Shown: piece by piece, positions 3,452 through 33,187 of the stretch | Numbering within the stretch: the stretch's first letter is position 1 | Layout of the letters: the number at the start of each line of letters is the position of its first letter | DNA from: a virus | Length of the DNA stretch: 64,000 nt | Direction: 5' to 3' (one strand) | Virus record (IMG/VR): IMGVR_UViG_3300044620_000527 | Span: 1 to 64,000 of that record | The notes under the pieces: generated by a model | Told to the model about the DNA's origin: nothing | Seen by the model: the letters and a program-made list of their open reading frames with translations, nothing else | The model's database searches: none | Position numbers and translations under genes: made by a program

Positions 3452-3476
3452 CTTACCTACATAATACGGTTATAAT
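3448..3476 (+). promoter_or_regulatory. Sigma70-type (early) promoter for gp32
   Basis: TTGACT (3448-3453), 17 bp spacer, TATAAT (3471-3476). Confidence 0.8.
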
Positions 3477-3525
3477 ACTTCGTATATCTGTCACACTTTA
3501 ATACTTCGTACACGAAAGGATACAA

Positions 3526-11617: not shown

Positions 11618-12458
11618 TAATCATTTGGGTGATCCTACATTTAGGTGGTGGTGGGGTTGTGTTGAAGATAGAATGGACCCATTACAAAAGGGAAGAGTTC
11701 GAGTCAGAATACACGGTTATCATAGTCCATTTAAAAAAGATATTCCAACTGAGGGTTTGCCTTGGGCCGAAGTAATACAACCAGCCACAACGGGAAATTC
11801 ACCGCAAGCGACAGCGGTAGGATTGCATGAAGGATTATGGGTATTTGGATTCTTTAAAGATGGTGTTGAATGTCAACAACCAGTAGTTGTTGGATGGTTG
11901 CCAACTTTACCGGAAGAACCCCCAAAGGAAGAAACCAAAGGTATTGATACTCTCCAACAAAAAGATACAGAATCTGAAACTTTCCAAAAAAATTATGGTG
12001 ATGGATTCCGTGATCCAAGAAAACAAGAAGATCTTAAAAAATATCCATCAAAAGAAGTAAAAAGAAATTATCCACTTGGAAATCAAGAATCTTCTGAAAA
12101 ACGTGGTGTTCAACTAGAAGAATTAGAACCTAAAAAACAAACTGATCGTTTGGGTAGAGCAATAACGATAAACGATAAAACAAAAATAAAAGAAACAATA
12201 ATAGAATTAAAAAAAACACCACGACCAGAAGGATTGCTGGACTCGGCACCAATCGCAGATATTGATATTGAGGAGTATTTTGAATGTGGTGTGGTGAATA
12301 AAAGTGAAGCAAATAAAGGTACATTGAGTGGGTTGGGTTCTGGAAATAATTCATTTAAAAGCAGTATAGAGGCTTCCAAATTTGACAACTGGAAATTGAC
12401 AAAAGAAAAACCATTAAATTCTTCCAACAAAGAAATATTAGGATGTAATGACTCATGA
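11610..12458 (+). CDS. gp5: Baseplate spike gp5, N-terminal OB-fold part
   Basis: WWWGCVEDRMDPLQKGRVRVRIHGYH, LPWAEV and GLWVFGFFKDGVECQQPVVVG; SD AAGGAG 6 nt before ATG 11610. Confidence 0.88.
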   Translation: MPNNHLGDPTFRWWWGCVEDRMDPLQKGRVRVRIHGYHSPFKKDIPTEGLPWAEVIQPATTGNSPQATAVGLHEGLWVFGFFKDGVECQQPVVVGWLPTLPEEPPKEETKGIDTLQQKDTESETFQKNYGDGFRDPRKQEDLKKYPSKEVKRNYPLGNQESSEKRGVQLEELEPKKQTDRLGRAITINDKTKIKETIIELKKTPRPEGLLDSAPIADIDIEEYFECGVVNKSEANKGTLSGLGSGNNSFKSSIEASKFDNWKLTKEKPLNSSNKEILGCNDS

Positions 12459-18807: not shown

Positions 18808-18809
18808 TT

Positions 18810-21800
18810 ATGCCAAATATTAATTCTAATATTCAAAAACAATCTGTTCAGGGTTTCTTGGGTTCATTTTTAAATAACCCAAATAATATTTTTAATCAAG
18901 CATTGGGTTCTTTGCCAGATGCACCACCAACACCAACGGATGAAGTGCAACAAGAAACCGATAACACAGTAAATCCTGATCCAGTTTTGTTTATTATTAC
19001 TGGTGAATCTAATGCTGGTGGATTTGCTTACAATGGTAGTGCATTGGCATCAGAATTAAATCAAAGAAATAATGTTCAAATATTAAACAACAATAATTTG
19101 ACTTTTGAATCTTTGAGATTTGGATTTAATGGTAATAACTTCTTAGGTCATCTTCCACAACCACCATACGCAGATGTAACTGATGCTTCATATTGGAACG
19201 CATATCCGTGGGGCACAACAGCAGTTGGTGGATATCCACATGGCTTTGAATTGGGATTTGCTAATGAAGTTGATAGTGGATATTTTGGAAATAGTGAAGT
19301 TTATTTGTGCAAAGTTGCAATGGGTGGTTCTACTGTTTTTGATTGGGATACCGACAGTAATACTACAACTGGTTATTGGGAAAAATTTGTTGAAAGAGTA
19401 GATGCAGCAAAAGCACAAGTTGGTGCATCTGCAAATATTTTTATATGTTTAACGATTGGTATTAATGACGCATATGCGTTTGACAGAGCACATGCTCCCG
19501 GAAATTTGTACGAAAATGGTAAAATTAAACAATGGGTAGATACTGGTATTTGGGAAGATCCATTTACTGAAGAAGATATTGAGAGTTGGAAAACTCAAAT
19601 GCGTGCTCATTTCACAAACATGAGAAATGCAGTTGGTTTTAATGCTCCAATTCTTATTACTTATTTAATGGATAGAGTTCCAATTTTCCAAAAATTTAAT
19701 GTGGCAATTGGTGAACTTGCAAATGAGGATAATCTTTTATATTGGGTAAAAACTTCAGATGCTTCATTAAATGCAGATTCTATCTGGAATAATACTGTAA
19801 ACTTTAGAAATAAAGACTTTGTGCATTGGGATTATTCTGGAATGAAATTAATTGCTTCCAGATTCACATATCTTGCAACAGAAGTATTTGGATTAAACGA
19901 TCAATATGATCAAAGTTTAATAAATCCACCAGCACAAGATGAAGCAGATTTATCGACAAACATAGATGCCGCAGACTATGAAGTATTTGCCGCCGCATGG
20001 ATACGTGAGGTTGATGAAAATGCAACTTCTGTTGTTCCTATGATTTGGGTCGATAATATGGGTGGATGGGTTGGTACTACGACCACTGATAATGAGGCTT
20101 GGACCAATGAATATGTTAGTGCTATAAATTATACAAATTTTAAAAATAAGTTATTAGAAGTTCCACAAGGTAGAAGAGTATTACAAACAACTTTTTGGTC
20201 AGCAGCACCAGTAAATGTAAATTGGAGTCCTTTAACTTATATTGATTACTATGCAGATCTTGAAGGAATAAGCGTAAACAATACAAATTTAAAGTATCCA
20301 GATTTTACACAATCACAAAAACTACCATTTTCAGCATGGCACGAAAACATAATAGCAGATGCTAAAACTAGTGTAAATCAATTCTTTGCTCGTTGTGCTG
20401 CGGATGGATTGTCTTTTGATTACATTACTGACAACTCAATATACACAGATGGAGCAAATCCAAATATTTGGACAATAAGCCAACAACAAGCTATAGGAAC
20501 TTGTGGTGGTAATGCAACTTATAACATTTACGTTTCTGTAAATGATGGAAACGATTCTTGGAGTGGCGAAAACCCAAGTGTTGGTGGACTAACAGGACCA
20601 GTTAAAACACTACAAAAAGCAGCCGATTTAGCAAAAAATTATACCGGTCCATTAAATATTGAAATTCGTATAAGAGGTGGTACTTATAAAATTTTAGGTA
20701 CATCTTCTAATCCAGTTTTCTATTTAAACGAATCTTATAGTGGAACAAACGGAAGAACAATAACTTATAAACCATATAAAAATGAAGAAGTTATAATTTC
20801 TGGTGACGAAGAAATTGCTTGGACGGAATTTACTGCGTTAAATTCTTCAGATCCACTGTGGAGTCGTCTGGCCCATAATCCAACTGCTCAGGCGAATGTA
20901 TATGTTGCTGACGTTACTGATTATGATTTGGGTCAATATCCTCCAGCATGGCGAGGAATGCCACAAGCAACAAGTGGTTATAAAACGGGATTGACTGGTG
21001 TGCCTGGTGGACAAGCAGCCGAAATGTGGTCGGGACAACCAGCAGTTCCAGATTTAATATACAACGATACAGCAATGACTGTATCTCGTTGGCCAAAGAA
21101 AACATCTTTTTCTGGCTATTCTTTTGATGAATGTGCTCACATAGAAAATTTAAGTACTGCAATCATTGATACAGGCACCGAAGGTGTTTGTTGGAATGAT
21201 CCCGTTGCCTGTGCATCAAAACGTCAAGGCAAATTTAAATATGAATGTTTTCATGAAAATTATCATGATGTAATCTCTAGATGGGCAGTTAATTCTGGAA
21301 CAGATGAACAACCATTTGATGACATTTATTTGTTTGGATTTTGGAGATTTGAATGGGCAGAAGAAACATTCAAATTAGTAAATATTGATTTGGATGACAG
21401 AGAATTTACAGTAAGATCTCAAAATTCACATTATACAATAACTAATACTCATTATTGTTATTCTGGTTCAGATTTGGGTCGCGGTTATGCAAATCCTACA
21501 CCAAGAAGATGGTATGCGTTTAACGTTCCAACCGAAATAGGACCAGGTGAATATTATATTGATAGAACTAACAAAAAGTTATATTTCTATCCTCCAACTG
21601 CTCTATCTTCCAGTAGTAAAATTAGTTTAACTCATAGAGCTTTAACTGGACCGGGTTCCATTTATTTCCAATCTCATGATGTAATTCAATCAGAACATCA
21701 ACATTATGGTTCTGATCCAAATCATCCAAACAATACATTTAAATATCCGGGATGGGTAAATTCTCCATTGGGTTGGGATAGTAATGGTGGTGGAACACAA

Positions 21801-24800
21801 TCCAGAGATATAATGAATAATAAAGACGTAATTCACTCTTTATTTAAATTGTATAAAGTAAAAAACGTCAACATTGTTGGATTAACTTTTAAAAACTGTG
21901 CTGGAAGTGCCATTGATACTCAATTGTGTGAAAATATTAATATAAAACAATGCAAAATATACAACATGAAATTGGATGGAATTTGTTCTCAAGGTGGTAT
22001 TAATGTTGTTATAGATTCGTGTGATGTCCATGATGTTATGATGAATGGTATAGTAAATACTGGTGGTAATCCACAAACTCTAGAACCCGCAAACAATGTT
22101 GTTACCAAATGCAGAATCCAAAGATATGGAATTTCTGCACCATCTGCATGTGCAGGTGTGATTATAAACGGTGTAGGTAATACAGCATCAAAGAATTTAT
22201 TTAAAGATGGTGCAAGAGCAGTACAACTTCAAGGCTCAAAGAATATAGTTGAATACAATCATTTTTATGAATTATTAAAAGATCAAGAAGATTATGGTGT
22301 TGTTTATGGTGGAGGAGATGTTCTTACTTTTGGTAGTAAGATCCGTTACAATTTCTTTAATACCTGTGGCAGTAGATTGCCGGGTGGAAGAGAATGGTAC
22401 AATAAATATGATACGACAGACCCGTTTCCATATGGTTGCCGCGATCAACAACATCAATTATCTGTTGGTGTTTATTCTGATGCCTATCAATCTGGTTGGG
22501 AAATATTTGGTAATGTATTTTATAATCACGGTTTACCTTCTTCTTTAGCACCAGATGGCCCAGTTGTACAGGGTTGGTGTGTGAATATAGGAGGTGGTCC
22601 AAGAAATTCAATTGAAAACAATATTTTTATCAATTCCACTGGTTCTCAAACTAATTCCGCGGCTGGCTCATTTATAGTTAATCCAGCATTAACTAATTTT
22701 AATTACCTATACAAAGATTTAGAGTGGACTTATTTAAATCCAAATAATATTGTATATCAACCATTTGGTTATACCGATGGACCAGCAAGAGGATATAATT
22801 TTTGGAATTATTTAGCATCACACGGACTTAATAGATGGAATGATGGTGTTGGTTTTACTACAACTGTCGATATAACAAATGCAGCATATACGGAACAAGC
22901 ACCTTGGATCGCCGGTGATGTTAAAATTGAAACTATCAACGGTGTAAGAACGTTTACTGGATTTAAAGATGTACAACAGTACGCTAATTTGAAAGCAACA
23001 GTAAAAAACAATGTATTAATTAATCACTATGGATTTATTAATGGTAAGTCTATAATATTAAATATGACAAATTCAAACGGTGGAACATATCCAAATATGG
23101 ATACAAATCCACCAACAGGTGGGTTTGATGTAACAAATACTGTAACTTTTGCCAATTTGGAAACATTTGCCGGATTTACTAATCCATCAACTAGTAATTT
23201 TAAATTAACATCAAATGGATTGACTAAGATTCGTGAACAAATACCGCAATTCACAGATATTAATTTTGATCTGATTCCATCTTCGAGTTATGTTCCACAG
23301 GCTTATGTTGCACAAACCGAAAATTATGCTTGCAATTTGAGACACTATACTGGTACTGTGGATTTTGCAAATCCAAATATTTTAGAAAGTATAGTAACAG
23401 ATCCTCGTTTTACAACTACAGTAAATCCAGTTAATGGAAAAACTTTAGAACAAGATTTTATGGATCGTTACGAATATTGTGTTACTAAAAATAACACAAC
23501 AGATAGAACAATATATCCATATTATTCTACATCTTGGTATAATTCAGCAGAACCAAATGCATATGATGCATTTGCTCCTATGTTTGGTTGGTTGTATTCT
23601 GCACAACCAGAATATGATATGGAAGTTCCACCGTGGGGCACTTCAAGTAATAATGCTGCCACACGCGCATGGACCGCAGTATTGACCGACTGGGGTAATT
23701 TATATTACAGACTAGAACTATTTAAAGATCCATTAGTTGATAATGGTTTTACAAATGTTAAAATTTCTTTGGATGGACATTATCCTGTCAGTGAAACTGA
23801 AATGGAATTTATGGATATGGACAACTTGTGGATTGAAGCCCCAAGAGAAGATAGTGCAGATTCAATGATTGCACCACACATATATGCTGAGTTGGGTACT
23901 ACTGCGTTTAATTTATATGGTTATAAGATCAATCCAGAAAATGATGATCAAAAATATAAATTTGCAAAACTTCCACAAGGTGTTGCGGTAGAAGGATTCG
24001 AACGATATACATCTCCAGCATGGTTAGCATTTTTAATCGATATGAAACGTATTCGTGGAGTTATAAATTCCAGCGAAACCGCATGGCAAAGATTGACTCC
24101 GTGGTTAATTAGTAAAAAGTGGTGCGTCGCTGAGAGATTTAGATTCTGTGCAGCAAATGGTGGCGAATACGCAGATGCCTATTGGAAAGAAGCAGTATTT
24201 CATGCATGTTTACATGGTACTCTCTATTTTAACTATTTTAATTACGATAAATCAGATACTTTAGATTTACATGAAGTACTTGATGAGTGGAGAGAAAACT
24301 CAAATAACAGTAGAGTGCAGCCAGTAGTAAAAACAAAAATTCCAGTAAATACTAGTGTATTTGTTTCTGGTGGTAAATTATTAAATTCAAACAGATACTT
24401 GTGGAGATTAACTGCCAAACCTTCAACATCAGTTACTTTGAGAGCATTTGGTAGTAGTACAACTAGAAGTGATATACCACAAACAATAACACTAGATGCA
24501 AATAGCAGAGGAGCTTGGTTATTAACTGCCAGTTCTGTGCCTCCAATTTATATTTTAGATGAAGGTGGACAACAAGAAACAGTAGATTTAGAATATGTTA
24601 CAATGATAGATACAAATTTTACCACATTCCTACACAAGAATAAAGCAATGGGTGGAGGAGCAAACCATGACTATGGTAGTGGTATTGGATTAGATGCTCA
24701 AGGCAAATCTATTTCTCCTATAAATTATTTGTACGAAAGTGGTCAAACAGTATCGTTGCTTTTGGGAGCTAATCTAAATTGGATGTATGAAGACAATTAT

Positions 24801-27800
24801 AGATTAGATAGCAATGGACAAGCAATAAGAGTAATAAAAAATATAACTCCAACACAATCTGTTACTCTTTGCACAGATCCTTGCTACCAAACAGCCGCTT
24901 GTTATCAATCTCCTAGATTGGTTGATTCCGTTTTTTCCGAAATGATGTCAATTGATGGTGAATGGGGTCCAGCATTAAGACAAAATGATCCATTCCCAAA
25001 TAACAATGGAAGCAGAAATTACGATTATATTACTATAAATGAACAAGTATTTACTGCTCAACCTTATGATCCAAATAAACCTATAGATTATTCTTACGAT
25101 TATTTTGGAAATTATGTAATTGAAAGTACACAAATACCAGCAAGTTTCTGGGTAAGAAGTACCACTCAAAACGGAAGACCAGATTTAGCATATAATTACG
25201 ACGAACAAGGAACACTGGGTAATTCAACAAATTATTCTTCAGTTGCAACAGGTTGGTCGCCAGTATTATTCTGGACAACGGAGGATGGAACCTTAAAATG
25301 GTCAACAACTATTCCGGTGTATTCTGGTTATAATTTAATTCCTCCAACAGAGTATCAATCTTTAAAGTATAAACAAATAACTGTTGGTTATGGACAAGTA
25401 TACGGTTTAACTACAAATGACACAATTGTTGGTTGGGGTGGAGATGGTAGTGTAAAAAGAAATACAGAATTCTTCATGCAACAATTGAGATATATGCAAC
25501 GATCTGGTGAAAAATTACACGAAGTAAAAATAAAGAAGATTGCTGCTGGTGCAGGACATTGCAATGTTCTGATGGAAAATGGTGAATTGTTTGTATTTGG
25601 AGGAAATGAAGGAGCACAATTGAGCGATCCAAACACAGTTTGGACACCAATTGGATTGATTCCACTTCCAGTTGTTAATGATGCTCTTTATATTACAAAT
25701 CCGGTTCCTTATACCTATTACAAATACGAACAAGATAAGTCATCTTATTTGGTTTCATTTGGTAGTTCTGAAAATGTCGGTACAAGTAATGCATGTGTAC
25801 CAACACCAGTGGGTAGTATAAAATATAGATTGTTTAGAAACAATTTGTTAGGTTGTGATATACATGAAGGCACGCCAAATGGTAGATATGATACTCCTTA
25901 TGTGAGAGGAACATCTTCATATCCGAACGATACATATCCACCAACTGGAAGTGCTGCTTGGAGTGGGTTGATTGATTGGTCCACCCATACTGGTGCTCCA
26001 TATGATTATCAATTCTCTAGAGCAACCGTAGGAAATCAAGACAGTCCAAACTATAGTTTAAATGGTTCTTGGACAAGAAGTGATAGACGTTTGCCAATGG
26101 TTCAAGCAAGCGGAGGAACTTCTTTAGGATATACTAATGCTGCTGGGCAACAAATTCCAAATTCTCTATTCGGTACTTCTGGAAACAAATATACAGATGT
26201 TGTTGCCGGACGAACGCACACAATTGCATTAACACAAAATGGAAATATAGAAACTTGGGGTTGGAACTGGTATTACACAATAACCGGAAGTGGTCCTCAT
26301 GATGGATCTTTGGGTTGGAATAGAGTTGGTGCGGGTAATCCAAATGCAGATTCAGACTCAGATCCAATCACAAAAGCAGCACCATATGGATATAATACAG
26401 CCCCCGCAGTAAAATTGCTTAAAACCACTTTGGGTTCAGTTAAAGCAATTGGTGCTGGTTATTATACAAATCAAGTCATAAAAAATGACGGTAGTGTATT
26501 TGCTTGGGACAGAAATGAATGGGGAGAATCTTTACCGTTCTTCAATTCAGACGAAACTGCTGGTCTACCAACAGGCAAATTTAAACAAATTTGTGGTTCC
26601 TATCACCACACAATCGCACTCCGTGAAGATGGAACAGTTGTATGTTGGGGTGAAAACAGATATGGAGAATGTGATGTGCCGGCTTCATTAAAGAATGTAA
26701 ATACGGCAGATTGTGTATGGATTGGTAGTTGCGCTTACGTTTCTTTGGCTCTAAAGAGAAACGGCGATTTGATTGCATGGGGTAGAGTAACCGATTTGAA
26801 GGCTGGTGCGGTTTCTGGACAAAAACTTTTAGATGAAAAAATATTCCTAAATCAAAATAGTCCATTTGTTCTGGGTTATGAATATCCAGTAAAACACTCA
26901 AATCTTTCTTTAGAAATTAAGAGTGCAAACGATGCGCCTCATGTAAGAAATGAGCCAGGAAATATGTTTAAATACACCGGATTCTTATTTGCTCCGGTGA
27001 GAAAAGACGATGGATGTGCAGATCACGTTTATTTCTCGTTGTTCCAAAAAATGTTGGAAAACGAAAAAGAAATGGCAGATTATCAATATTTTGTAAATAA
27101 TTTACCAAACGTGCCTTCTTGTGTTCTACAAAGTTCTGCTTGGAATAATTATCATGCAGATGAGTATGTAAACGGAGAATATAGACCAAAATATGTTTTA
27201 GTAAATTATGAAGCAGAATTGGTAGATCAAATAAGATCCGTCAATGCAACCGGCAGAAAAGTTCTTGCAGATGGAACAAAAGCATATGTTACAATTGAAG
27301 GTCAACCCATAAATGAAAATCTATGGCAAAGAGTTGTTTCATATGTAAAATTAACAAGAAAAATGAACCATTACATACGTCAAGTGTTTGGTAATCAAGC
27401 AAACATTGCACACTATGACATGTATGCTGTTCCATTCTATCAAGATTGGAAGGGCGGTGGACAATGGTATCCCAATAATGGAATACTATTCAGTCAAGAG
27501 TATCAAGTAACAGAATGTGCGTATTGTGATGAATTGTTACCAGATTATCCTGGTCATGCTGTATATAATAATCTACCAAATAGTGAAAAATTAATTTGGA
27601 TTGAAAAGGCAGTCAAAGCACTTCAAGATAAAGTGTTTAGAATGGCAAAAGCAATATCAAAAATGTGTTTGTTTGAAAATGCTGAAGGTGAACCCGATAC
27701 TTTAGATTTAAGAGAAGATTTATCTAGTTTAATGCCTCAAATCGATCCAAGTAATTTTATCATAACAGGATTAAACCATTATCCAAATTCAGTTCATGGT

Positions 27801-30740
27801 GCTTTGGCAACCAATACACACAAGTATTACACTTGCACAAGTAATGGTTTTAACACAACAGCACAAGTTGAATCATTAAATGATGCGGAATCAAATAGAA
27901 GTAGAGAAATGTCGATTCACTTTAAAGAACAAGGAAGAGTTGGTTTATTCAATAATCAACGTTCCGGTAAATTCTTTTCACCGTTCGTGCAAGGAGTGTG
28001 TGGTTCTGACGTTGCGGAATCCTTCTACGAATTTTACAGTTCCAGTGATCCAAATAATGCTGGTTATAAAAAATCTTGGACAAGTTTTAGATTTGACGCC
28101 CAAGAAATATCAACATTACCAACCACAACAACTAATCCATCACATCCCGCTGGAACAAGAATTTATACAAATAAATCATCACCAAAGAGTGGTTTAAGAA
28201 GAAGTTTTGCATTAGACTTCCCAATAATTAGCATCAATAATGATTTGTGTGCTAAATTGAATCTAAATTCTGCTATAAAGCAAAAAGACGAAATAATTTG
28301 GTCAGATAATACTACTTCAAATTATGTTGCAACTAAATTGAATTATATGATAACTGCAACAGAAGGTATTTACGAACAACCAAGACCATGTGCTCAAAAC
28401 GAAACGCCACATGCTGGTTGCCGAGATATTGTAAATAATCCCTATGTAAAACCAACAATATTTGATCATACAACAAAAATAAGAAAAAATGATTATGATA
28501 CTTTCCAATGCAGTACAAATCCTGGCAATAGTGATTACAGTCCAAATTGTAAAAATTATTGTTATGCTAATCCAGTAACTCCAGACAGAGGTGCTGCATC
28601 GATATTGAGTATACTTTCCACCAGAAAAATAGCATATGAACTTGCTGTGGAATATGCAAGTTATGATGATATGGTCGCAGTGCCCTACGAGGACTTAACT
28701 AATGATCCATATTGGACTGGATACTATGGTAAATTTGCTCGTTTTGATCCATTTATAACAGAACCTCCGGCCACAATTCAAGAAGCGTCAAATTATGCAA
28801 ATTACGATGATACAACATGGCCCAATATTAGACTATCAGAAACTGCAAAACGTGTCCAAGGTCTTTCTATAATATTGAGTTTCCGTAAAGATGGATCGTT
28901 GCATAAATTTATGAAAAACCAAGAGCAAACTCACATTAGAGATTGGCCTCAACCACCGGCACAATTTAATGTAGATCGTAGACCTGGAGTAGCGTGTACT
29001 TTACCAGTTGCTGGTGGAAATAACACATACTTGTCGTTTACAGGAGACAACCAAAATGCAAATGCATTGTGGGTGAAGGATACCGGTATACAAAAAATTA
29101 TAGAAAATTATTTAGAATATAATTATAATAGAGGATATAGAAGATTCTTAGTTTGGGTTCCATGTGGTTATTCAACTACATATGGACCAGGATATACTTC
29201 AGCAATAACTTCTGCAATGAAGCACAGAGTGTATACTGGTGGTATTATCAATCCATCCGAAGCATGTTGGCATGGTAATAATCTTCCAATAGATCCTGCA
29301 ACTGGTCTAAGAATACCACAAACGGTTCAGCAAGCACAAAGCACAACACTAACATTTAATGAAAACGGAAGATTGAATGAATGGTTAACTCAGTTAGGTG
29401 CTTGGATTGCTGCACACCCACAAGCGGATGTTGGCTTGTATATCGGATATGCAATACCAACATTAAACGGTACACCAGTTGGTGATATTGGAATTAGTGG
29501 GGATCTTGGAAATGGTTCTTCTGGACAAAATGCACAATCTGGTAGAGGATGGCAAACTCCAAATCCAGCGAATAATGCAATTCACGCACAATTCTTAAGA
29601 AATGAATTACAACCTTGGATTGATATTGGAATTAATTTCTTAGCGATAGATGCTGGACCTGGAATGTTTAATTATGAAAATGGTGGTAGTGTATCGTATG
29701 GACCAAATGCTGCGTCAAGACAAGCCGTAGGTGACTACAAGGCTTGGTTGATTGAAGAGTTTGGTTTAAAGACAGTAATGGCAGAAGCCCTTGCTATCGA
29801 TCCAAGAGCACCAATATTAGATGAATTTAATAAAGTTGCAAATACTAGTTATCCAAGAAAAACATTAATGAAAATTGATCTAACTGAGGAAATTTGTAAG
29901 GGAACTGCTGTTCCTTCACAAAGTGAGGCAGGAGATCCTTTCAATACAGTATATACCGACGATTGTTGGTACAATAAAGGTAGAGAGAGATATAGAAAAC
30001 TAGATGCTAGTGGAAAAGATTATAGAACAGAATCAGGTGATCCTAATGATTTAGTTTATTCTTCTGGTGCTTATCAATACTGTCCTTATTTAATTTTGTT
30101 AAACGGTTACTTAAATCAAGGAGAGTGGAATATTGGAAAAGAAAATGAAAGTGGAATAGGAGGATTTGCTGGTCTAGATCCAAATAATATGTTCTCTTGG
30201 TATAGAAGAAACACTGAAATAGGAGTAATTGTAGAAAATTACTACTTATTAAGTTCAGAATTGCGTAAAGTTTATAGAGATAATTTTACAAATTGGCAAG
30301 GTTACGGAAGATTGTGGGAAACTTCTCCAGCATGGCACGATCAAGGACTTGCCACACCAACAGCAGCAGTAAGTTCTTCTAATCTAATTGGTCCACACGA
30401 CGGCAGACAACACACAAGAGATTCTGAATTCTACAATAGAGTTAGAAATGAAATTTTTGCAAAAATTAAAAACTATATTGATAGAGGTTACGTCTACTGG
30501 GCGTCCATAGGAAAACTTGATGGACAACTGAATAAAGATGTGGATCAAGATGTAAGAACTTATGTTGATGCTGTAGAAATTGACTATGGCAGTTATGCTC
30601 AAGATGAAATAACAGAAAATGAGCAACCACCACAAAGAATTTACAACACAAATTCACCAAATAAATATGCAGCAGATGAAATCTTGTTTGAAAATTTCAT
30701 AAATACATCAACAAGTACTGACGAAAGCACAGAGGGTTAA
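18810..30740 (+). CDS. Giant (3976 aa) multidomain putative virion protein: SGNH O-acetylesterase, parallel beta-helix glycanase-like domain, RCC1 repeats and unassigned domains
   Basis: GESN, GINDA and DFVH SGNH motifs; YVSVNDGNDSWSG...PVKTLQKA...IRGGTY beta-helix N-cap; repeats such as AGRTHTIALTQNGNIETWG and GSYHHTIALREDGTVVCWG; 2-nt and 1-nt gaps to neighbouring baseplate genes. Confidence 0.75.
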   Translation: MPNINSNIQKQSVQGFLGSFLNNPNNIFNQALGSLPDAPPTPTDEVQQETDNTVNPDPVLFIITGESNAGGFAYNGSALASELNQRNNVQILNNNNLTFESLRFGFNGNNFLGHLPQPPYADVTDASYWNAYPWGTTAVGGYPHGFELGFANEVDSGYFGNSEVYLCKVAMGGSTVFDWDTDSNTTTGYWEKFVERVDAAKAQVGASANIFICLTIGINDAYAFDRAHAPGNLYENGKIKQWVDTGIWEDPFTEEDIESWKTQMRAHFTNMRNAVGFNAPILITYLMDRVPIFQKFNVAIGELANEDNLLYWVKTSDASLNADSIWNNTVNFRNKDFVHWDYSGMKLIASRFTYLATEVFGLNDQYDQSLINPPAQDEADLSTNIDAADYEVFAAAWIREVDENATSVVPMIWVDNMGGWVGTTTTDNEAWTNEYVSAINYTNFKNKLLEVPQGRRVLQTTFWSAAPVNVNWSPLTYIDYYADLEGISVNNTNLKYPDFTQSQKLPFSAWHENIIADAKTSVNQFFARCAADGLSFDYITDNSIYTDGANPNIWTISQQQAIGTCGGNATYNIYVSVNDGNDSWSGENPSVGGLTGPVKTLQKAADLAKNYTGPLNIEIRIRGGTYKILGTSSNPVFYLNESYSGTNGRTITYKPYKNEEVIISGDEEIAWTEFTALNSSDPLWSRLAHNPTAQANVYVADVTDYDLGQYPPAWRGMPQATSGYKTGLTGVPGGQAAEMWSGQPAVPDLIYNDTAMTVSRWPKKTSFSGYSFDECAHIENLSTAIIDTGTEGVCWNDPVACASKRQGKFKYECFHENYHDVISRWAVNSGTDEQPFDDIYLFGFWRFEWAEETFKLVNIDLDDREFTVRSQNSHYTITNTHYCYSGSDLGRGYANPTPRRWYAFNVPTEIGPGEYYIDRTNKKLYFYPPTALSSSSKISLTHRALTGPGSIYFQSHDVIQSEHQHYGSDPNHPNNTFKYPGWVNSPLGWDSNGGGTQSRDIMNNKDVIHSLFKLYKVKNVNIVGLTFKNCAGSAIDTQLCENINIKQCKIYNMKLDGICSQGGINVVIDSCDVHDVMMNGIVNTGGNPQTLEPANNVVTKCRIQRYGISAPSACAGVIINGVGNTASKNLFKDGARAVQLQGSKNIVEYNHFYELLKDQEDYGVVYGGGDVLTFGSKIRYNFFNTCGSRLPGGREWYNKYDTTDPFPYGCRDQQHQLSVGVYSDAYQSGWEIFGNVFYNHGLPSSLAPDGPVVQGWCVNIGGGPRNSIENNIFINSTGSQTNSAAGSFIVNPALTNFNYLYKDLEWTYLNPNNIVYQPFGYTDGPARGYNFWNYLASHGLNRWNDGVGFTTTVDITNAAYTEQAPWIAGDVKIETINGVRTFTGFKDVQQYANLKATVKNNVLINHYGFINGKSIILNMTNSNGGTYPNMDTNPPTGGFDVTNTVTFANLETFAGFTNPSTSNFKLTSNGLTKIREQIPQFTDINFDLIPSSSYVPQAYVAQTENYACNLRHYTGTVDFANPNILESIVTDPRFTTTVNPVNGKTLEQDFMDRYEYCVTKNNTTDRTIYPYYSTSWYNSAEPNAYDAFAPMFGWLYSAQPEYDMEVPPWGTSSNNAATRAWTAVLTDWGNLYYRLELFKDPLVDNGFTNVKISLDGHYPVSETEMEFMDMDNLWIEAPREDSADSMIAPHIYAELGTTAFNLYGYKINPENDDQKYKFAKLPQGVAVEGFERYTSPAWLAFLIDMKRIRGVINSSETAWQRLTPWLISKKWCVAERFRFCAANGGEYADAYWKEAVFHACLHGTLYFNYFNYDKSDTLDLHEVLDEWRENSNNSRVQPVVKTKIPVNTSVFVSGGKLLNSNRYLWRLTAKPSTSVTLRAFGSSTTRSDIPQTITLDANSRGAWLLTASSVPPIYILDEGGQQETVDLEYVTMIDTNFTTFLHKNKAMGGGANHDYGSGIGLDAQGKSISPINYLYESGQTVSLLLGANLNWMYEDNYRLDSNGQAIRVIKNITPTQSVTLCTDPCYQTAACYQSPRLVDSVFSEMMSIDGEWGPALRQNDPFPNNNGSRNYDYITINEQVFTAQPYDPNKPIDYSYDYFGNYVIESTQIPASFWVRSTTQNGRPDLAYNYDEQGTLGNSTNYSSVATGWSPVLFWTTEDGTLKWSTTIPVYSGYNLIPPTEYQSLKYKQITVGYGQVYGLTTNDTIVGWGGDGSVKRNTEFFMQQLRYMQRSGEKLHEVKIKKIAAGAGHCNVLMENGELFVFGGNEGAQLSDPNTVWTPIGLIPLPVVNDALYITNPVPYTYYKYEQDKSSYLVSFGSSENVGTSNACVPTPVGSIKYRLFRNNLLGCDIHEGTPNGRYDTPYVRGTSSYPNDTYPPTGSAAWSGLIDWSTHTGAPYDYQFSRATVGNQDSPNYSLNGSWTRSDRRLPMVQASGGTSLGYTNAAGQQIPNSLFGTSGNKYTDVVAGRTHTIALTQNGNIETWGWNWYYTITGSGPHDGSLGWNRVGAGNPNADSDSDPITKAAPYGYNTAPAVKLLKTTLGSVKAIGAGYYTNQVIKNDGSVFAWDRNEWGESLPFFNSDETAGLPTGKFKQICGSYHHTIALREDGTVVCWGENRYGECDVPASLKNVNTADCVWIGSCAYVSLALKRNGDLIAWGRVTDLKAGAVSGQKLLDEKIFLNQNSPFVLGYEYPVKHSNLSLEIKSANDAPHVRNEPGNMFKYTGFLFAPVRKDDGCADHVYFSLFQKMLENEKEMADYQYFVNNLPNVPSCVLQSSAWNNYHADEYVNGEYRPKYVLVNYEAELVDQIRSVNATGRKVLADGTKAYVTIEGQPINENLWQRVVSYVKLTRKMNHYIRQVFGNQANIAHYDMYAVPFYQDWKGGGQWYPNNGILFSQEYQVTECAYCDELLPDYPGHAVYNNLPNSEKLIWIEKAVKALQDKVFRMAKAISKMCLFENAEGEPDTLDLREDLSSLMPQIDPSNFIITGLNHYPNSVHGALATNTHKYYTCTSNGFNTTAQVESLNDAESNRSREMSIHFKEQGRVGLFNNQRSGKFFSPFVQGVCGSDVAESFYEFYSSSDPNNAGYKKSWTSFRFDAQEISTLPTTTTNPSHPAGTRIYTNKSSPKSGLRRSFALDFPIISINNDLCAKLNLNSAIKQKDEIIWSDNTTSNYVATKLNYMITATEGIYEQPRPCAQNETPHAGCRDIVNNPYVKPTIFDHTTKIRKNDYDTFQCSTNPGNSDYSPNCKNYCYANPVTPDRGAASILSILSTRKIAYELAVEYASYDDMVAVPYEDLTNDPYWTGYYGKFARFDPFITEPPATIQEASNYANYDDTTWPNIRLSETAKRVQGLSIILSFRKDGSLHKFMKNQEQTHIRDWPQPPAQFNVDRRPGVACTLPVAGGNNTYLSFTGDNQNANALWVKDTGIQKIIENYLEYNYNRGYRRFLVWVPCGYSTTYGPGYTSAITSAMKHRVYTGGIINPSEACWHGNNLPIDPATGLRIPQTVQQAQSTTLTFNENGRLNEWLTQLGAWIAAHPQADVGLYIGYAIPTLNGTPVGDIGISGDLGNGSSGQNAQSGRGWQTPNPANNAIHAQFLRNELQPWIDIGINFLAIDAGPGMFNYENGGSVSYGPNAASRQAVGDYKAWLIEEFGLKTVMAEALAIDPRAPILDEFNKVANTSYPRKTLMKIDLTEEICKGTAVPSQSEAGDPFNTVYTDDCWYNKGRERYRKLDASGKDYRTESGDPNDLVYSSGAYQYCPYLILLNGYLNQGEWNIGKENESGIGGFAGLDPNNMFSWYRRNTEIGVIVENYYLLSSELRKVYRDNFTNWQGYGRLWETSPAWHDQGLATPTAAVSSSNLIGPHDGRQHTRDSEFYNRVRNEIFAKIKNYIDRGYVYWASIGKLDGQLNKDVDQDVRTYVDAVEIDYGSYAQDEITENEQPPQRIYNTNSPNKYAADEILFENFINTSTSTDESTEG

Positions 30741-30741
30741 T

Positions 30742-33180
30742 ATGTCAAATTTCAGACAAAGAGGAAGAGAAAATAATGCTAAAGTATTTTTGAATGATTT
30801 TAATCAATCAAAAAGCAGTTCGTATTTTGTTTCTATTGGTAATGCTGTAACTTCTTCTACAGCATCCTCTTCCCGATTTGCGGATTGTGTGGAAACAGAT
30901 CAGTATACTTGGGATAATATGTTTGTTATGAATGAAATATTCAGAACAGATGTATCATTAATGATTAAAAAAATAGATTGGATTTCTGGAACGCGGTATG
31001 AGGCTTTCGATAAAAGCAAAAATCAATATGAATTAAATGAAAAGTTTTATGCATATAATAACACCAACAACAGTGTTTATTTGTGTCTTGCTAGTCCAGA
31101 AAACGAAAATGCATTTAGTACATATGCTCCAACAAGCGAAACCATAGAACCAGAAATAAAACAAGATGGTTATACGTGGAAGTTTTTGTATAAATTAAGT
31201 GATATTGATTTGGAAAAATTTGATTATCCGGGATTTATACCAGTTAAAGAAATAGGAACTGATCTCTATACAGATGAACGAATTTTACAACAAAATGTAC
31301 AAGCAAATACAATCAGAGGTGCGGTTGAAGCAATTGATGTTGTTGTGCAAGGAAGCGCATACAATGGAGCAGTAAACGCAAATTTTGAAAATGCATTTTA
31401 TGCAATACAAAGTGTGGTGCAAGAAACAGGTGAAGATGGTACAGTAAGTCTTTCAGTAATAGTAGATGATGCTTTGCAAGAATTAAATAAAACACAAAAT
31501 TTTTACAAAGACAAATATGTAATTAATTTTGAAAATGGATATACTGCGGTATTGGATGGAAGTGGATTCAATAATAATGGAGATTTCCAAATTGACATTT
31601 GTACGGATCAAATAGTTCAATTTGGTCCAACTGGAACACTACCACCAACTACAGTACAATTTAGAATTTTACCAGCAATTAAAATAATTGGTAATGGTAA
31701 TGACGCTTGGGCTATTCCTACATTAGATGCTGCTAAAAAATTAACAAAGATTAAAATGTTAAAAATTGGATCTAATTATAGTTATGCAGAAGCAAGAATA
31801 TTAGTCTCAAATGGTACAGTCTTAAAACCAATCATTGGTTTAAATGGTCTAACTTCAGATATTACTCAAATATTAGGCGCAAAGCATGTTATGATTTCTA
31901 AAAAAATCAAACCAGTAACAACTTTGTCGGAAAGTGATCCAGTAATTTATTCTTTACCGGAAAATATAGGATTAGTATATGAGGGACCTCAGTATAAAAA
32001 TGTAATAACACCAAATACATTTTATACTCAACTTGCATTAATTAAAAGTCCAAAAATTCTAAATGAAGATAATTTAGAAGAAATCGCAGGAACACAAATA
32101 ATAGAAGTTAGAGAAATGGTTTTGGATGCTATTAATCCCAAAATAACAATTACAATAGGAACAGCACAAAATCCATATGTCAATCCTAATGATTTTTTTG
32201 AAGTAAATGATATTATTGTTAGAGGACCCGATAATCTTCCAGATCAATTTAGAGCAAAAATAACGGATGTAATGGTAACAGGTTTCAGTACAATATTGGT
32301 TTGTGATTTGATCAACGGCGCATTTGAAACATATTCTGGTTATAAGATTAAAAACTTAAAAGAAACTACTGAAACTATAGATGATTCATTTTTTATATTT
32401 TTAGATTGTGACAATAATTGTTCAAAAGCAATAAAAGTTCAATATGAAAATACGTTTTTACAAACCGATTTTATTAATGATGATTCGGTTTATGGTACGG
32501 TAAGTTATGAAACGGCTGAAATAAAACAACCATTAACTGGTTATGCATATGTAAATCCACTATATCCAACAAAAGCAAAAATAAAAGTAAATAATCCGGG
32601 AACAGGATTTATACCAGCAAGATATGAAGATGGTGAATATATCCCCGGTGAAATTATAACTTCTATAGTAACTGTGGAAAATCAAACTAGAGCAGTAACA
32701 AGAGGGACTTTGGTTTCTATAAGCGATCCCATAGAATATATTGGAGAACAAACTTTAGGTTATTCTTATATTTTGGAGTGTGTAATTGATAGAGATGGGA
32801 TAGATACTGCTTTTGAATTAGTGAATTCTGATAATATCTCACTGGAAACCAATACATTAATTCGTCAAGGAACAACAGGTTCTTTAGGAAAAATAATAAG
32901 AGTTGGAATTCCTTCCGGTACTGGGGATGCAAACATAGTCTATTTGTATGTAAATAATTACAATGGTCCATTTTATGCGGATGGACAAACTAAAATTTAC
33001 AAAATAAATAGTTTATATGAACCAACTGAATATGTTGATATGAAAATGACCGTACAAAATATACTTTACCAACCAAAGTTAGTGCGTTACTCTGGTAATT
33101 TGTTATATATAAATGATGTAGGGCCTGTGCAACGTAAGTTGGAAAATACAGAAAATATCAAACTATTAGTGGAGTTCTGA
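30742..33180 (+). CDS. gp8: Baseplate wedge protein gp8-like (extended)
   Basis: IDWISGTRYEAFD, FYAYN...VYLCL, DGYTWKFLYKL, FIPV and C-terminal YSGNLLYINDVGPVQRKLENTENIKLLVEF. Confidence 0.8.
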   Translation: MSNFRQRGRENNAKVFLNDFNQSKSSSYFVSIGNAVTSSTASSSRFADCVETDQYTWDNMFVMNEIFRTDVSLMIKKIDWISGTRYEAFDKSKNQYELNEKFYAYNNTNNSVYLCLASPENENAFSTYAPTSETIEPEIKQDGYTWKFLYKLSDIDLEKFDYPGFIPVKEIGTDLYTDERILQQNVQANTIRGAVEAIDVVVQGSAYNGAVNANFENAFYAIQSVVQETGEDGTVSLSVIVDDALQELNKTQNFYKDKYVINFENGYTAVLDGSGFNNNGDFQIDICTDQIVQFGPTGTLPPTTVQFRILPAIKIIGNGNDAWAIPTLDAAKKLTKIKMLKIGSNYSYAEARILVSNGTVLKPIIGLNGLTSDITQILGAKHVMISKKIKPVTTLSESDPVIYSLPENIGLVYEGPQYKNVITPNTFYTQLALIKSPKILNEDNLEEIAGTQIIEVREMVLDAINPKITITIGTAQNPYVNPNDFFEVNDIIVRGPDNLPDQFRAKITDVMVTGFSTILVCDLINGAFETYSGYKIKNLKETTETIDDSFFIFLDCDNNCSKAIKVQYENTFLQTDFINDDSVYGTVSYETAEIKQPLTGYAYVNPLYPTKAKIKVNNPGTGFIPARYEDGEYIPGEIITSIVTVENQTRAVTRGTLVSISDPIEYIGEQTLGYSYILECVIDRDGIDTAFELVNSDNISLETNTLIRQGTTGSLGKIIRVGIPSGTGDANIVYLYVNNYNGPFYADGQTKIYKINSLYEPTEYVDMKMTVQNILYQPKLVRYSGNLLYINDVGPVQRKLENTENIKLLVEF

Positions 33181-33187
33181 GGAAACC

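What the first reader, a model, noticed from the sequence alone, without database searches (positions are those of the whole stretch)
18810..30740. 3976-aa multi-enzyme protein inserted between baseplate genes gp7 and gp8
Seen: one 11.9 kb ORF packed with 1-2 nt gaps between core wedge genes. It carries an SGNH esterase (~18980-19880), a beta-helix domain (~20520-23280), RCC1-like repeats (~25370-26790) and more than 1,300 aa of unassigned C-terminal sequence. Inference: a baseplate-borne assembly line that de-acetylates, cleaves and binds a host surface glycan. It lacks the usual trimeric fibre signature, so its attachment and architecture may be new.
Basis: partly seen in the sequence, partly recalled or inferred. 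Interest (0 to 1): 0.8.

Follow-up and report, generated by a model that had tools for sequence, protein, structure and literature searches.

The report
Giant modular glycan-enzyme baseplate protein
An uncultured lake-water T4-like phage has one intact, conserved 3976-residue gene in its baseplate operon that joins an acetyl-esterase, a beta-helix glycosidase-like module, a propeller and a newly recognised TIM-barrel on one scaffold. It is probably a virion-borne tool for binding and cutting the host's surface sugars, but that is not yet shown.

Summary
ORF 18810-30740 (+) is a single 3976-aa frame, 2 nt after the gp7-like gene and 1 nt before the gp8-like gene. Independent lake metagenomes carry it without indels. 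It is under strong purifying selection (dN/dS 0.05-0.10 in every module) and occurs in metatranscriptome libraries.

- SASA/SGNH esterase with all catalytic motifs intact (S67, N219, D336, H339).
- GH141-like parallel beta-helix.
- RCC1 propeller.

New here:
- The last ~560 aa of the 'unassigned' C-terminus fold as a (beta/alpha)8 barrel most like GH36/27/66/13 glycosidases, with conserved Asp and Glu at the ends of strands 4 and 5.
- The beta-helix is an insert between two segments (X, M) that are contiguous in relatives and are predicted to pack together.
- The protein belongs to a small metagenome-only family. It has a 2220-aa backbone (N-peptide-X-M-C1-C2) into which esterase, beta-helix, propeller and unknown modules are inserted at six or more sites.
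- The gene sits between gp7-like and gp8-like in all six related contigs whose flanks could be read.

Virion location, attachment, oligomeric state, activity and substrate remain inferred. I class it as a new variant of a known kind (virion-associated glycan-active receptor-binding proteins), of moderate to high interest.

The parts
18810..30740 (+). Whole 3976-aa ORF (P0001), stop codon included
   Evidence: Intact in independent runs. dN/dS 0.05-0.10 against L005.
18810..18941 (+). N module, aa 1-44: a conserved N-terminal peptide (M1, I4, N26, N29, Q30, L32-P36 invariant), followed by a P/T/D/E-rich linker. Candidate baseplate anchor (inferred).
   Evidence: Invariant columns in A1. Found at the N-terminus of every full-length family member, whatever module follows.
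18942..19949 (+). SASA/SGNH carbohydrate acetyl-esterase module, aa 45-380. Motifs: GESN (S67), GGS (G173), GIND (N219, D220), DFVH (D336, H339). Present only in the window and L005, with a related esterase in P0042.
   Evidence: Pfam SASA is weak directly (E 5e-4, 20.1 bits, cut-off 24.8). Homologues at E 9e-29 to 1e-12 carry PF03629. Motif alignment.
19950..20504 (+). X segment, aa 381-565: first part of the backbone unit X+M
   Evidence: X joined to M aligns without a break to P0007 66-856. Predicted to pack on M.
20505..23294 (+). Parallel beta-helix module, GH141-like, aa 566-1495, inserted between X and M
   Evidence: Pfam Beta_helix E 6e-9, above cut-off. GH141_M is weak, in 4 of 5 members. 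PDB profile hits: 9rx2_A 1e-16, BT_1002 (GH141) 2e-4, pectate lyase and GH28 about 7e-4. Absent from P0007, P0039 and P0040.
23295..25217 (+). M segment, aa 1496-2136: second part of the X+M backbone unit, plus downstream subdomains. Fold not determined.
   Evidence: The language-model lead (GH66/GHL15-type clusters, score 0.90 or lower) is a lead only. No PDB sequence hit.
25218..26873 (+). RCC1-repeat beta-propeller module, aa 2137-2688, an insert at the M/C1 junction
   Evidence: Pfam RCC1_2 E 4.6e-24. PDB BLIP-II 9e-16 and UVR8 2e-11. Absent from P0003-5 and P0040; sits at a different site in P0008.
26874..28511 (+). C1 backbone module, aa 2689-3234. Fold unknown; alternating alpha/beta in a low-confidence model.
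   Evidence: It hosts nested inserts in P0008 and in P0007/P0039.
28512..28961 (+). C2a backbone module, aa 3235-3384, unassigned. In L006/L010 the gene is split just before it.
28962..30629 (+). C2b, aa 3385-3940: a (beta/alpha)8 TIM barrel resembling glycoside hydrolases. Near-invariant D3614 (end of strand 4) and E3659 (end of strand 5).
   Evidence: AF2 pLDDT 70.2, pTM 0.79. VIA Z 12.1 to GH36 9awt_A and 4fnp_A, with 288 chains at Z>=8. Near-invariant columns in the 24-row alignment A9. Stand-alone homologues of about 500 aa, E 4e-23.
16948..18807 (+). gp7-like baseplate wedge gene (619 aa), immediately upstream
   Evidence: PF23786 E 1.6e-10. phrog_17744. Aligns to both the N- and C-terminal parts of HTVC008M gp055.
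30742..33180 (+). gp8-like baseplate wedge gene (812 aa), immediately downstream
   Evidence: phrog_438 E 5.6e-46. tblastn to the S-SM2 feature 'gp8: baseplate wedge subunit'.

Best explanation
This is a baseplate-associated, single-chain, multi-module protein that recognises and degrades host-surface glycan. It belongs to an uncultured freshwater T4-like (Kyanoviridae-related) myovirus.

The family has a conserved backbone: N-peptide, X+M unit, C1, C2a and a C2b TIM barrel. In this phage the backbone carries three inserted cartridges: a SASA/SGNH O-acetyl-esterase after the N-peptide, a GH141-like beta-helix nested between X and M, and an RCC1 propeller between M and C1.

Proposed mechanism:
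1. The conserved N-terminal peptide docks the protein on the wedge periphery, beside gp7-like and gp8-like.
2. The propeller, and possibly other lobes, bind a capsule, O-antigen or other envelope polysaccharide.
3. The esterase strips O-acetyl groups.
4. The beta-helix and the TIM barrel cleave glycosidic bonds, so the baseplate can reach the cell surface.

Shown here: the gene, its conservation and position, the identity of the domains, the intact SGNH motifs, the TIM-barrel fold with conserved acidic residues, the nested and modular architecture, and its presence in RNA libraries.

Inferred: virion incorporation, the anchoring mode, copy number, catalysis, the substrate and the order of the steps.
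For: Gene and selection:
- ORF and packing.
- Independent assemblies carry it without indels, and it is present in two metatranscriptome libraries.
- dN/dS is 0.05-0.10 for every module, like gp6 at 0.04.
- 31 of 38 listed strain variants fall on codon position 3.

Context:
- The order gp25-gp6-gp7-like-GIANT-gp8-like-VrlC-like is kept in L005-L010.
- In a distant T4-like contig (L011) a 1122-aa beta-helix protein follows the gp7-like gene.

Domains:
- Esterase.
- Beta-helix.
- RCC1.
- TIM barrel. The language-model lead to GHL10/GHL6/GH66 is a lead only.

Architecture:
- X joined to M is collinear with P0007, E 1e-155.
- Predicted X-M packing: ipSAE 0.77, best of 3 controls 0.00. This mark was reached by 58 of 80 solved complexes and 2 of 110 mismatched pairs. 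The runs agree in at least 22% of contacts and the partner's pLDDT is at least 38.
- Module map across 17 family proteins.

Precedent: virion-associated SGNH esterases and beta-helix depolymerases are established in phages (review PMC5380687; PMC8471582; bioRxiv 10.64898/2026.07.31.742079).
Against: - There is no direct evidence that the protein is in the virion: no isolate and no proteome.
- The host and its glycans are unknown.
- The GH141 catalytic Asp pair (D523/D564 of BT1002, PMC12786026) could not be mapped.
- The TIM barrel has no sequence match to any GH family. Non-GH TIM barrels score within 2 Z units of the best hits.
- The X+M, C1 and C2a folds are unresolved.
- No trimerisation or adaptor domain was recognised.
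- The RNA-library signal could be DNA carry-over.
- The X-M complex pass used my own shallow alignments, and the partner's fold was uncertain in one run.
Confidence: 0.6

Rival explanations
1. The protein is mainly a structural or adhesive component of the outer baseplate. It would be a single-chain scaffold, like the giant gp7-position proteins of cyanophages and jumbo phages. Its beta-helix and TIM-barrel modules would be non-catalytic carbohydrate-binding or purely architectural lobes, with at most the esterase active.
For: - The gp7-like domain of the upstream gene recurs at the start of 3-6 kaa cyanophage 'virion structural proteins' (phrog_4406, 701, 2885). Giant baseplate-module proteins are therefore common in this phage group.
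- No catalytic residues could be confirmed for the beta-helix.
- The TIM barrel belongs to no known GH family by sequence.
- The backbone modules X+M, C1 and C2a have no enzyme signature at all.
Against: - The SGNH catalytic blocks are fully intact.
- Acidic residues sit at the C-terminal ends of barrel strands 4 and 5, where retaining glycosidases of the best-matching families carry the nucleophile and the acid/base. They are near-invariant even in remote stand-alone homologues.
- The beta-helix keeps its conserved Asp-x-Gly-x-x-Tyr turn (D1161), aligned to 9rx2.
Confidence: 0.22
2. The protein is not part of the virion. It would be a late-expressed soluble enzyme, released at lysis or acting inside or around the infected cell, that degrades or remodels the host envelope or exopolysaccharide. 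Its purposes could be progeny release, exclusion of superinfecting phages or nutrient scavenging. It would lie in the baseplate operon only because of its late timing.
For: - No virion data exist.
- The window also encodes sugar-modifying genes at its left end and in the head operon (earlier first-reader notes, unchecked).
- Remote relatives of the C2b barrel, and of the extra domain of the split form, are stand-alone bacterial proteins. Some carry dockerins, which suggests secreted enzymes.
Against: - There are 1-2-nt gaps to the wedge genes on both sides, and this position is kept in all six related contigs.
- An N-terminal peptide with no signal-peptide character is conserved whatever module follows it.
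- A beta-helix protein sits at the same post-gp7 position in a distant T4-like contig (L011).
Confidence: 0.12
3. The giant frame is an artefact: a chimeric assembly, or a fusion of several genes through sequencing errors.
For: - Relatives exist in which the gene is in two pieces. L006/L010 have 2923 + 1030 aa. L007 has an in-frame stop.
- One RNA-library contig shows a 1-nt deletion at 21339, at depth 4.8.
Against: - Two independent DNA runs cover the whole stretch at 99% identity or more, without indels.
- Eighteen lake or freshwater runs from 2016-2024 hold at least 79% of its words.
- L005, L008 and L009 keep single long frames.
- Purifying selection acts on this frame in every module.
Confidence: 0.02

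Closest known systems
Virion-associated polysaccharide depolymerases (parallel beta-helix tailspikes, e.g. P22/K1F-type; review PMC5380687)
   Same: A right-handed parallel beta-helix module encoded among tail and baseplate genes. The presumed role is to cut through a surface glycan layer.
   Different: - Known tailspikes are separate homotrimeric proteins of 500-1000 aa with an N-terminal adaptor.
- Here the beta-helix is one nested insert of 930 aa inside a 3976-aa chain.
- It is nearest to bacterial GH141-like proteins (9rx2_A, BT_1002) and not to any phage tailspike. tblastn against 50,697 phage records gave only one weak hit.
- Trimerisation is not indicated.
SGNH/SASA esterase receptor-destroying tailspikes (Acinetobacter phage Aristophanes deacetylase, PMC8471582; the esterase 'petal' of the epsilon15 tailspike, bioRxiv 10.64898/2026.07.31.742079)
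   Same: An SGNH-fold esterase carried on a tail-associated protein. In epsilon15 it is also combined with a glycan-binding body in one chain.
   Different: - This module is of the SASA (PF03629) type and has two extra insertions.
- It sits directly behind a 44-aa N-peptide in a chain with at least two further enzyme-like modules.
- There is no homology to those phage proteins.
GH141 family (BT1002 alpha-L-fucosidase, Xyn141E xylanase, Wf141 endo-fucanases; PMC12786026)
   Same: A beta-helix with an N-terminal cap and an insertion domain. The profile hits BT_1002 at E 2e-4, and Pfam GH141_M is weak in 4 of 5 family members.
   Different: Sequence similarity is marginal and covers only the cap and the insertion domain. 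Equivalents of the catalytic D523/D564 were not aligned. The best PDB relative is an uncharacterised 'parallel beta-helix repeat protein', 9rx2.
Clan GH-D, GH66 and GH-H (beta/alpha)8 glycosidases (GH36 9awt and 4fnp, GH27 3a21, GH66 8iu8, GH31, GH13)
   Same: The predicted C2b fold superposes at Z 10-12 over about 240-285 residues. A conserved Asp sits at the end of strand 4, as the nucleophile does in these families, and a Glu at the end of strand 5, as the GH13 acid/base does.
   Different: - No sequence-level relation to any Pfam or PDB family.
- Identity in the structural alignments is 5-12%.
- Long extra loops are present.
- Other, non-GH TIM barrels score only about 2 Z units lower.
Giant single-chain baseplate-module proteins of other large myoviruses (cyanophage gp7-like 'virion structural proteins', phrog_4406/701/2885; the 121Q/RaK2 383-kDa protein noted in earlier scan finding e1-126567)
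   Same: A multi-thousand-residue ORF inside the wedge gene cluster, at or next to the gp7 position.
   Different: There is no detectable homology. Here gp7-like is a separate, complete 619-aa gene, and the giant carries recognisable enzyme modules.

Membership tests
SGNH hydrolase superfamily / SASA (PF03629) carbohydrate esterases | Block I Gly-x-Ser-x with the nucleophile Ser | tested here: met
   G65-E-S67-N68 is invariant in the alignment with seven PF03629-bearing homologues.
SGNH hydrolase superfamily / SASA (PF03629) carbohydrate esterases | Block II Gly and block III Gly-x-Asn-Asp (oxyanion hole) | tested here: met
   G173, and G217-I-N219-D220, are invariant.
SGNH hydrolase superfamily / SASA (PF03629) carbohydrate esterases | Block V Asp-x-x-His | tested here: met
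   D336-F-V-H339. The His is invariant. Asp occupies the -3 position in 7 of 8 rows.
SGNH hydrolase superfamily / SASA (PF03629) carbohydrate esterases | Score above the Pfam gathering threshold | tested here: not met
   The direct score is 20.1 bits against a cut-off of 24.8. Membership therefore rests on transitive homology (E 9e-29 to proteins annotated PF03629) and on the motifs.
Right-handed parallel beta-helix (PF13229) | Profile match above the gathering threshold | tested here: met
   36.2 bits against 25.9 in P0001. All 5 family members match, best E 4.7e-14.
GH141 | GH141 insertion domain (PF21231) and overall similarity to BT_1002 | tested here: inconclusive
   PF21231 matches 4 of 5 relatives, best E 0.008, but not P0001 itself. 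The profile hit to 5mqp_A has E 2e-4 and covers only the cap and insertion regions.
GH141 | Catalytic Asp pair (D523/D564 of BT1002; PMC12786026) | tested here: inconclusive
   The HMM alignment does not reach that part of 5mqp_A significantly.
RCC1-like beta-propeller | Tandem RCC1 repeats recognised by the family profiles | tested here: met
   RCC1_2 at 84 bits against a cut-off of 22, in four stretches at the laxer listing threshold (three at 0.1). Hits to BLIP-II, UVR8 and HERC2 in PDB. The number of blades and ring closure were not modelled.
(beta/alpha)8 glycoside hydrolases of clan GH-D / GH66 / GH-H | Eight-fold beta/alpha barrel fold | tested here: met
   The AF2 model has 8 strand-helix units, pTM 0.79. 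VIA Z is 12.1 with rmsd 4.1 A over 264 residues to 9awt_A, and 288 chains reach Z>=8.
(beta/alpha)8 glycoside hydrolases of clan GH-D / GH66 / GH-H | Nucleophile Asp at the end of strand 4, plus an acid/base on strand 5 or 6 | tested here: inconclusive
   D3614 ends strand 4 and E3659 ends strand 5 in the model. Both are at least 90% conserved over 24 rows. No residue-level superposition or assay was available.
(beta/alpha)8 glycoside hydrolases of clan GH-D / GH66 / GH-H | Sequence membership in a CAZy or Pfam GH family | tested here: inconclusive
   No Pfam hit in P0001 or in its remote homologues. No PDB profile hit. dbCAN is not available here.
Phage tailspike / tail fibre (homotrimeric receptor-binding protein) | Trimerisation element or known N-terminal adaptor domain | not tested
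   No Pfam or PHROG hit of that kind, apart from a local beta-helix match to phrog_7458 'tail spike protein', E 8.5e-6. Oligomeric state was not modelled.
Virion (baseplate) structural protein | Physical presence in the particle | not testable with these tools
   Only gene position and synteny are available.

The most novel reading that the evidence does not exclude
The family is a previously undescribed 'cartridge scaffold' for host-range evolution in T4-like phages. A backbone of about 2200 aa sits on the baseplate as a single chain. It tolerates whole folded modules (esterase, beta-helix glycosidase, propeller, unknown domains of 300-930 aa) inserted into loops or junctions at six or more positions, including inside a domain (X|M), inside C1, and in the strand 3-helix 3 loop of the TIM barrel. 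Specificity would then change by swapping nested cartridges rather than by exchanging separate trimeric tailspike genes. The window's protein is the most heavily loaded member seen.
Probability: 0.3. Interest if true: 0.75.

Novelty: new variant of a known kind. Interest (0 to 1): 0.58.

Why it matters
T4-like phages of abundant freshwater and marine bacteria have baseplate regions that differ greatly from T4's, and how they recognise their hosts is largely unknown.

This protein gives a concrete, testable candidate: three or four separable enzyme-like modules with named catalytic residues (S67/H339, D1161, D3614/E3659).

It also shows an unusual way of building such proteins. Modules are nested into a conserved single-chain backbone rather than encoded as separate tailspikes. 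Natural variants range from 2220 to 3976 aa and include split forms.

It adds a sequence-novel TIM-barrel family, with stand-alone bacterial relatives, to the set of candidate carbohydrate-active enzymes.

If it is virion-borne, it would be among the largest enzyme-bearing baseplate proteins described.

Tried and rejected
- The giant as the missing C-terminal part of gp7: rejected. The 619-aa upstream protein already aligns to both the N- and C-terminal conserved parts of HTVC008M gp055, and the giant shows no similarity to that protein.
- Relatives among isolated phages: megablast found none. tblastn of both halves found only one weak beta-helix hit and one weak RCC1 hit.
- Folding aa 2700-3899 in one piece: poor model, pLDDT 41. 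Its fold searches gave only weak TIM-barrel hits, Z up to 6.4 and Foldseek E 0.03 or worse. C1 and C2a therefore stay unassigned.
- PDB profile searches with M (A8), C1 (A11) and C2b (A9): nothing. Earlier profiles A3 and A5 were inflated by full-length rows and also found nothing.
- M and C2b as paralogues: hhalign probability 0.2.
- Foldseek of the C2b model against PDB: best E 6.9e-3, below significance, although every row was GH13 or GH27. BFVD viral structures: nothing.
- Protein-atlas neighbours (GHL10/GHL6/GH66 for C2b; GH66/GHL15 for M) scored 0.91 or lower, with low shared-feature counts. They are leads only.
- The dockerin-bearing proteins found by the profile search match only the extra N-terminal domain of the split form (P0031/L006 ORF2), not the window's protein.
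- T4 gp9/gp10 N-domain (PF07880) and gp11 (PF08677) in the 77-kb record: no match, but the control genomes were silent too and the record is 43% complete, so this is uninformative.
- The metagenome-contig scan added only a duplicate and a fragment. The first viral-contig scan with the C-terminus found nothing.
The contexts of P0003-P0008 and P0039-P0043 therefore could not be read.
- PDB entry 9rx2 was not found in the paper library.
Full report
**The observation**

The ORF listing finds one frame, 18810..30740 on the + strand, 3976 aa with an ATG start. Its translation is P0001. The upstream ORF ends at 18807 and the downstream ORF starts at 30742, so the gaps are 2 nt and 1 nt as reported. 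GC content is 0.34-0.36 across the gene, close to that of its neighbours. There is no sign of recent foreign origin.

**Where the window comes from**

The window is part of a 77-kb IMG/VR virus record that is estimated to be 43% complete. The surrounding genes form a T4-type baseplate and tail module:
- tube cap, gp53-like and gp5 (in two ORFs);
- gp25 (PF04965) and gp6 (PF21379, phrog_219);
- a 619-aa gp7-like protein (PF23786, phrog_17744);
- the giant;
- a gp8-like protein (phrog_438; tblastn to S-SM2 'gp8');
- a VrlC-like protein in two ORFs (DUF4815, phrog_358).

gp6 is only about 34% identical to its best matches, the pelagimyophage HTVC008M and the methylophage Melnitz. The portal is about 52% identical to Pelagibacter phage Mosig and to cyanophage P-SSM4. 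This is therefore an unisolated lineage related to Kyanoviridae.

In HTVC008M and Melnitz the order is gp25-gp6-(gp7-like)-gp8-VrlC, with nothing between the gp7-like gene and gp8.

The habitat is fresh water. Eighteen lake or freshwater metagenome runs from 2016-2024 hold at least 79% of the sampled words of the gene.

**Is it a real, working gene?**

- Contigs of two non-source DNA runs (X16, X7) cover every bin of 16900-33200 at 99% identity or more, with no indel.
- Two metatranscriptome libraries hold contigs over 29 and 20 of the 30 bins. DNA carry-over cannot be excluded.
- Of the 38 strain differences listed inside the ORF, 31 fall on codon position 3 (my count).
- Against the 86%-identical relative L005, dN/dS is 0.05-0.10 for every module. 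The flanking genes give 0.04 (gp6) and 0.125 (gp7-like).

The whole chain is under purifying selection, including the inserts.

(a) Esterase.
- The direct Pfam SASA hit is sub-threshold (E 5e-4, 20.1 bits against 24.8).
- A search restricted to aa 45-380 finds proteins at E 9e-29 to 1e-12 that carry PF03629.
- The alignment shows all SGNH blocks: G65-E-S67-N68, G173, G217-I-N219-D220 and D336-x-x-H339.

(b) Beta-helix.
- Pfam Beta_helix is above threshold.
- A profile of aa 381-1580 hits PDB 9rx2_A, a 'parallel beta-helix repeat protein', at 1e-16.
- It also hits the GH141 enzyme BT_1002 at 2e-4, and pectate lyase and GH28 at about 7e-4.
- Pfam GH141_M appears weakly in four of five relatives.
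- The GH141 catalytic pair D523/D564 (PMC12786026) could not be mapped.

(c) Propeller. RCC1_2 gives E 4.6e-24. PDB hits are BLIP-II at 9e-16 and UVR8 at 2e-11.

**The family and its modules**

A full-length search found a handful of metagenomic relatives of 2930-3656 aa. The exhaustive profile search added members of 2096-3113 aa. Pairwise and module-wise mapping gives this map for P0001, in aa:

| Module | Residues |
|---|---|
| N | 1-44 |
| SGNH | 45-380 |
| X | 381-565 |
| BH (beta-helix) | 566-1495 |
| M | 1496-2136 |
| RCC1 | 2137-2688 |
| C1 | 2689-3234 |
| C2a | 3235-3384 |
| C2b | 3385-3940 |
| acidic tail | 3941-3976 |

P0040 (2220 aa) is the bare backbone: N-X-M-C1-C2a-C2b. Variation among the other members:
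- The esterase is found only in the window and L005. P0042 has a related one.
- The beta-helix is absent from P0007, P0039 and P0040.
- RCC1 lies between M and C1 in the window, L005, L006 and L010. In P0008 it lies at the X/M junction.
- In P0008 the beta-helix lies inside C1, near aa 2825 in P0001 numbering.
- P0007 and P0039 carry an unknown insert of about 930 aa inside C1, near aa 3100.
- L008 and P0004 carry an insert of about 320 aa near aa 3575.
- L006 and L010 split the gene at about aa 3234. The second ORF there has gained a new domain of about 265 aa, whose relatives are bacterial dockerin proteins.
- L007 has one in-frame stop.

The 40-aa N-peptide is present in every full-length member, whatever module follows it.

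**Nesting of the beta-helix**

When X and M of P0001 are joined in silico, they align without a break to P0007 residues 66-856 (37% identity, E 1e-155). The 930-aa beta-helix is therefore an insertion at a point that is continuous in natural relatives.

A predicted complex of X with M(1-430) scored ipSAE 0.77 (median of three runs), with the best of three controls at 0.00. That mark was reached by 58 of 80 solved complexes and by 2 of 110 mismatched pairs. The runs agree in at least 22% of contacts, the partner's pLDDT is at least 38, and there are about 300 contacts. This supports X and M forming one unit but does not prove it. My own shallow alignments were used, and one run had a poorly folded partner. 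The idea came from an earlier first-reader note (e1-6067756) and was tested here.

**The C-terminus**

- No Pfam, NCBIfam or PDB sequence match exists.
- Folding aa 2700-3899 at once failed (pLDDT 41).
- The profile search found stand-alone proteins of about 500 aa that are homologous to aa 3385-3627 (P0046 against P0001, E 4e-23). None has a Pfam domain.
- With these added (24 rows, A9), aa 3380-3940 folded at pLDDT 70.2 and pTM 0.79, with eight strand-helix units.
- VIA-align against 48,161 PDB representatives gives Z 12.1 (rmsd 4.1 A over 264 residues) to the GH36 alpha-galactosaminidase 9awt_A, and Z 12.1 to GH36 4fnp_A. GH66, GH27, GH31, GH84 and GH13 barrels follow, and 288 chains reach Z>=8.
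- Non-GH barrels such as tryptophan synthase alpha reach Z 10.4. The fold is therefore secure, but the glycosidase reading is only suggestive.
- Foldseek's best E-value is 6.9e-3.
- Near-invariant columns over all 24 rows include D3614 and E3659. In the model these end strands 4 and 5, with local pLDDT of 74-97. The best-matching retaining glycosidases carry their nucleophile at the end of strand 4, and GH13 carries its acid/base at the end of strand 5 (family knowledge).
- The 320-aa insert of L008/P0004 falls in the low-confidence Gly/Ser-rich loop between strand 3 and helix 3.
- C1 and C2a remain unassigned.

**Position**

In L005-L010 the gene, or its split form, always lies between the gp7-like and gp8-like genes. 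In the distant T4-like contig L011, a 1122-aa protein with a different N-terminus and the same beta-helix module follows gp25-gp6-gp7-like. In L012 a 2973-aa protein with beta-helix plus RCC1 sits in another context.

The post-gp7 slot thus recurrently holds beta-helix proteins in this broad group. That fits a peripheral baseplate role. In T4 the peripheral proteins gp9-gp12 attach through gp7 and gp10 (established knowledge). No gp9/10/11 Pfam domains were found in the record, but that search is uninformative.

**Interpretation**

The best-supported reading is a baseplate-borne protein that binds and degrades glycan (confidence 0.6). Enzyme-bearing tail proteins are well known: beta-helix depolymerases, SGNH deacetylases, and an esterase 'petal' on the epsilon15 tailspike (PMC5380687, PMC8471582, bioRxiv 10.64898/2026.07.31.742079).

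What is unusual here is the single 440-kDa chain, the nesting of modules in a conserved backbone, the sequence-novel TIM barrel, and the lack of any relative in 50,697 phage records.

They are not homologous to this one.

The rivals are a mostly structural or adhesive scaffold (0.22), a non-virion late enzyme (0.12) and an artefact (0.02).

The scan had noted this same stretch in another reading of the same genome, but not on other DNA.

Noticed in passing
window 33188-35140 and 35161-41031: The VrlC-like baseplate protein is encoded as two consecutive ORFs. The first is 650 aa (DUF4815; phrog_358 positions 8-322). The second is 1956 aa (phrog_358 positions 520-1597). The same two-ORF arrangement is kept in L006-L010.
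   Followed up: partly
window 16948-18807: The gp7-like protein (619 aa) has about 95 extra N-terminal residues before the part that aligns to HTVC008M gp055. Its conserved domain (aa ~155-246) recurs near the start of 3-6 kaa cyanophage 'virion structural proteins' (phrog_4406, 701, 2885). This sits uneasily with the statement in PMC7029224 that T4 gp7 is absent from these phage groups and replaced by VrlC.
   Followed up: partly
L006:18629-19504 and L010:18704-19606: Where the giant gene is split in this sub-lineage, the second ORF begins with an extra domain of about 265-290 aa that the window's protein lacks. Its relatives are bacterial proteins of about 350 aa ending in a type I dockerin (P0049, P0051-54, P0057, P0060).
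   Followed up: partly
L007:10628-10630 (same contig as L014): A single in-frame stop divides the giant homologue into 1032 + 2496 aa. The near-identical L008 and L009 have an open frame. It could be a sequencing error, a pseudogene or read-through; this was not resolved.
   Followed up: no
L011:9632-13000: In a distant T4-like contig, a 1122-aa protein with an unrelated N-terminus of about 280 aa and the same beta-helix module lies directly after gp25, gp6 and a 401-aa gp7-like gene. Gene direction then reverses, and no gp8-like gene was seen.
   Followed up: partly
window 41226-45902 and 45907-48282: Two large ORFs (1558 and 791 aa) downstream of the VrlC-like genes have no Pfam or PHROG hit. 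They are presumably tail fibre or host-recognition genes. The 791-aa protein starts with three tandem repeats of about 15 aa of the form I-F/Y-V-R-D-x-S-G-N-x-P-x-E-I-S.
   Followed up: no
window 11604-12458 and 12455-13999: gp5 (baseplate hub / tail lysozyme, phrog_430) is encoded as two overlapping ORFs: an N-terminal OB part of 284 aa and a second part of 514 aa. The methylophage Melnitz is annotated the same way.
   Followed up: no
window 17539-17945: One metatranscriptome contig (run X19, depth 9.4) replaces 405 nt inside the gp7-like gene with 28 other letters. This suggests a strain variant with a shorter middle region of gp7-like.
   Followed up: no
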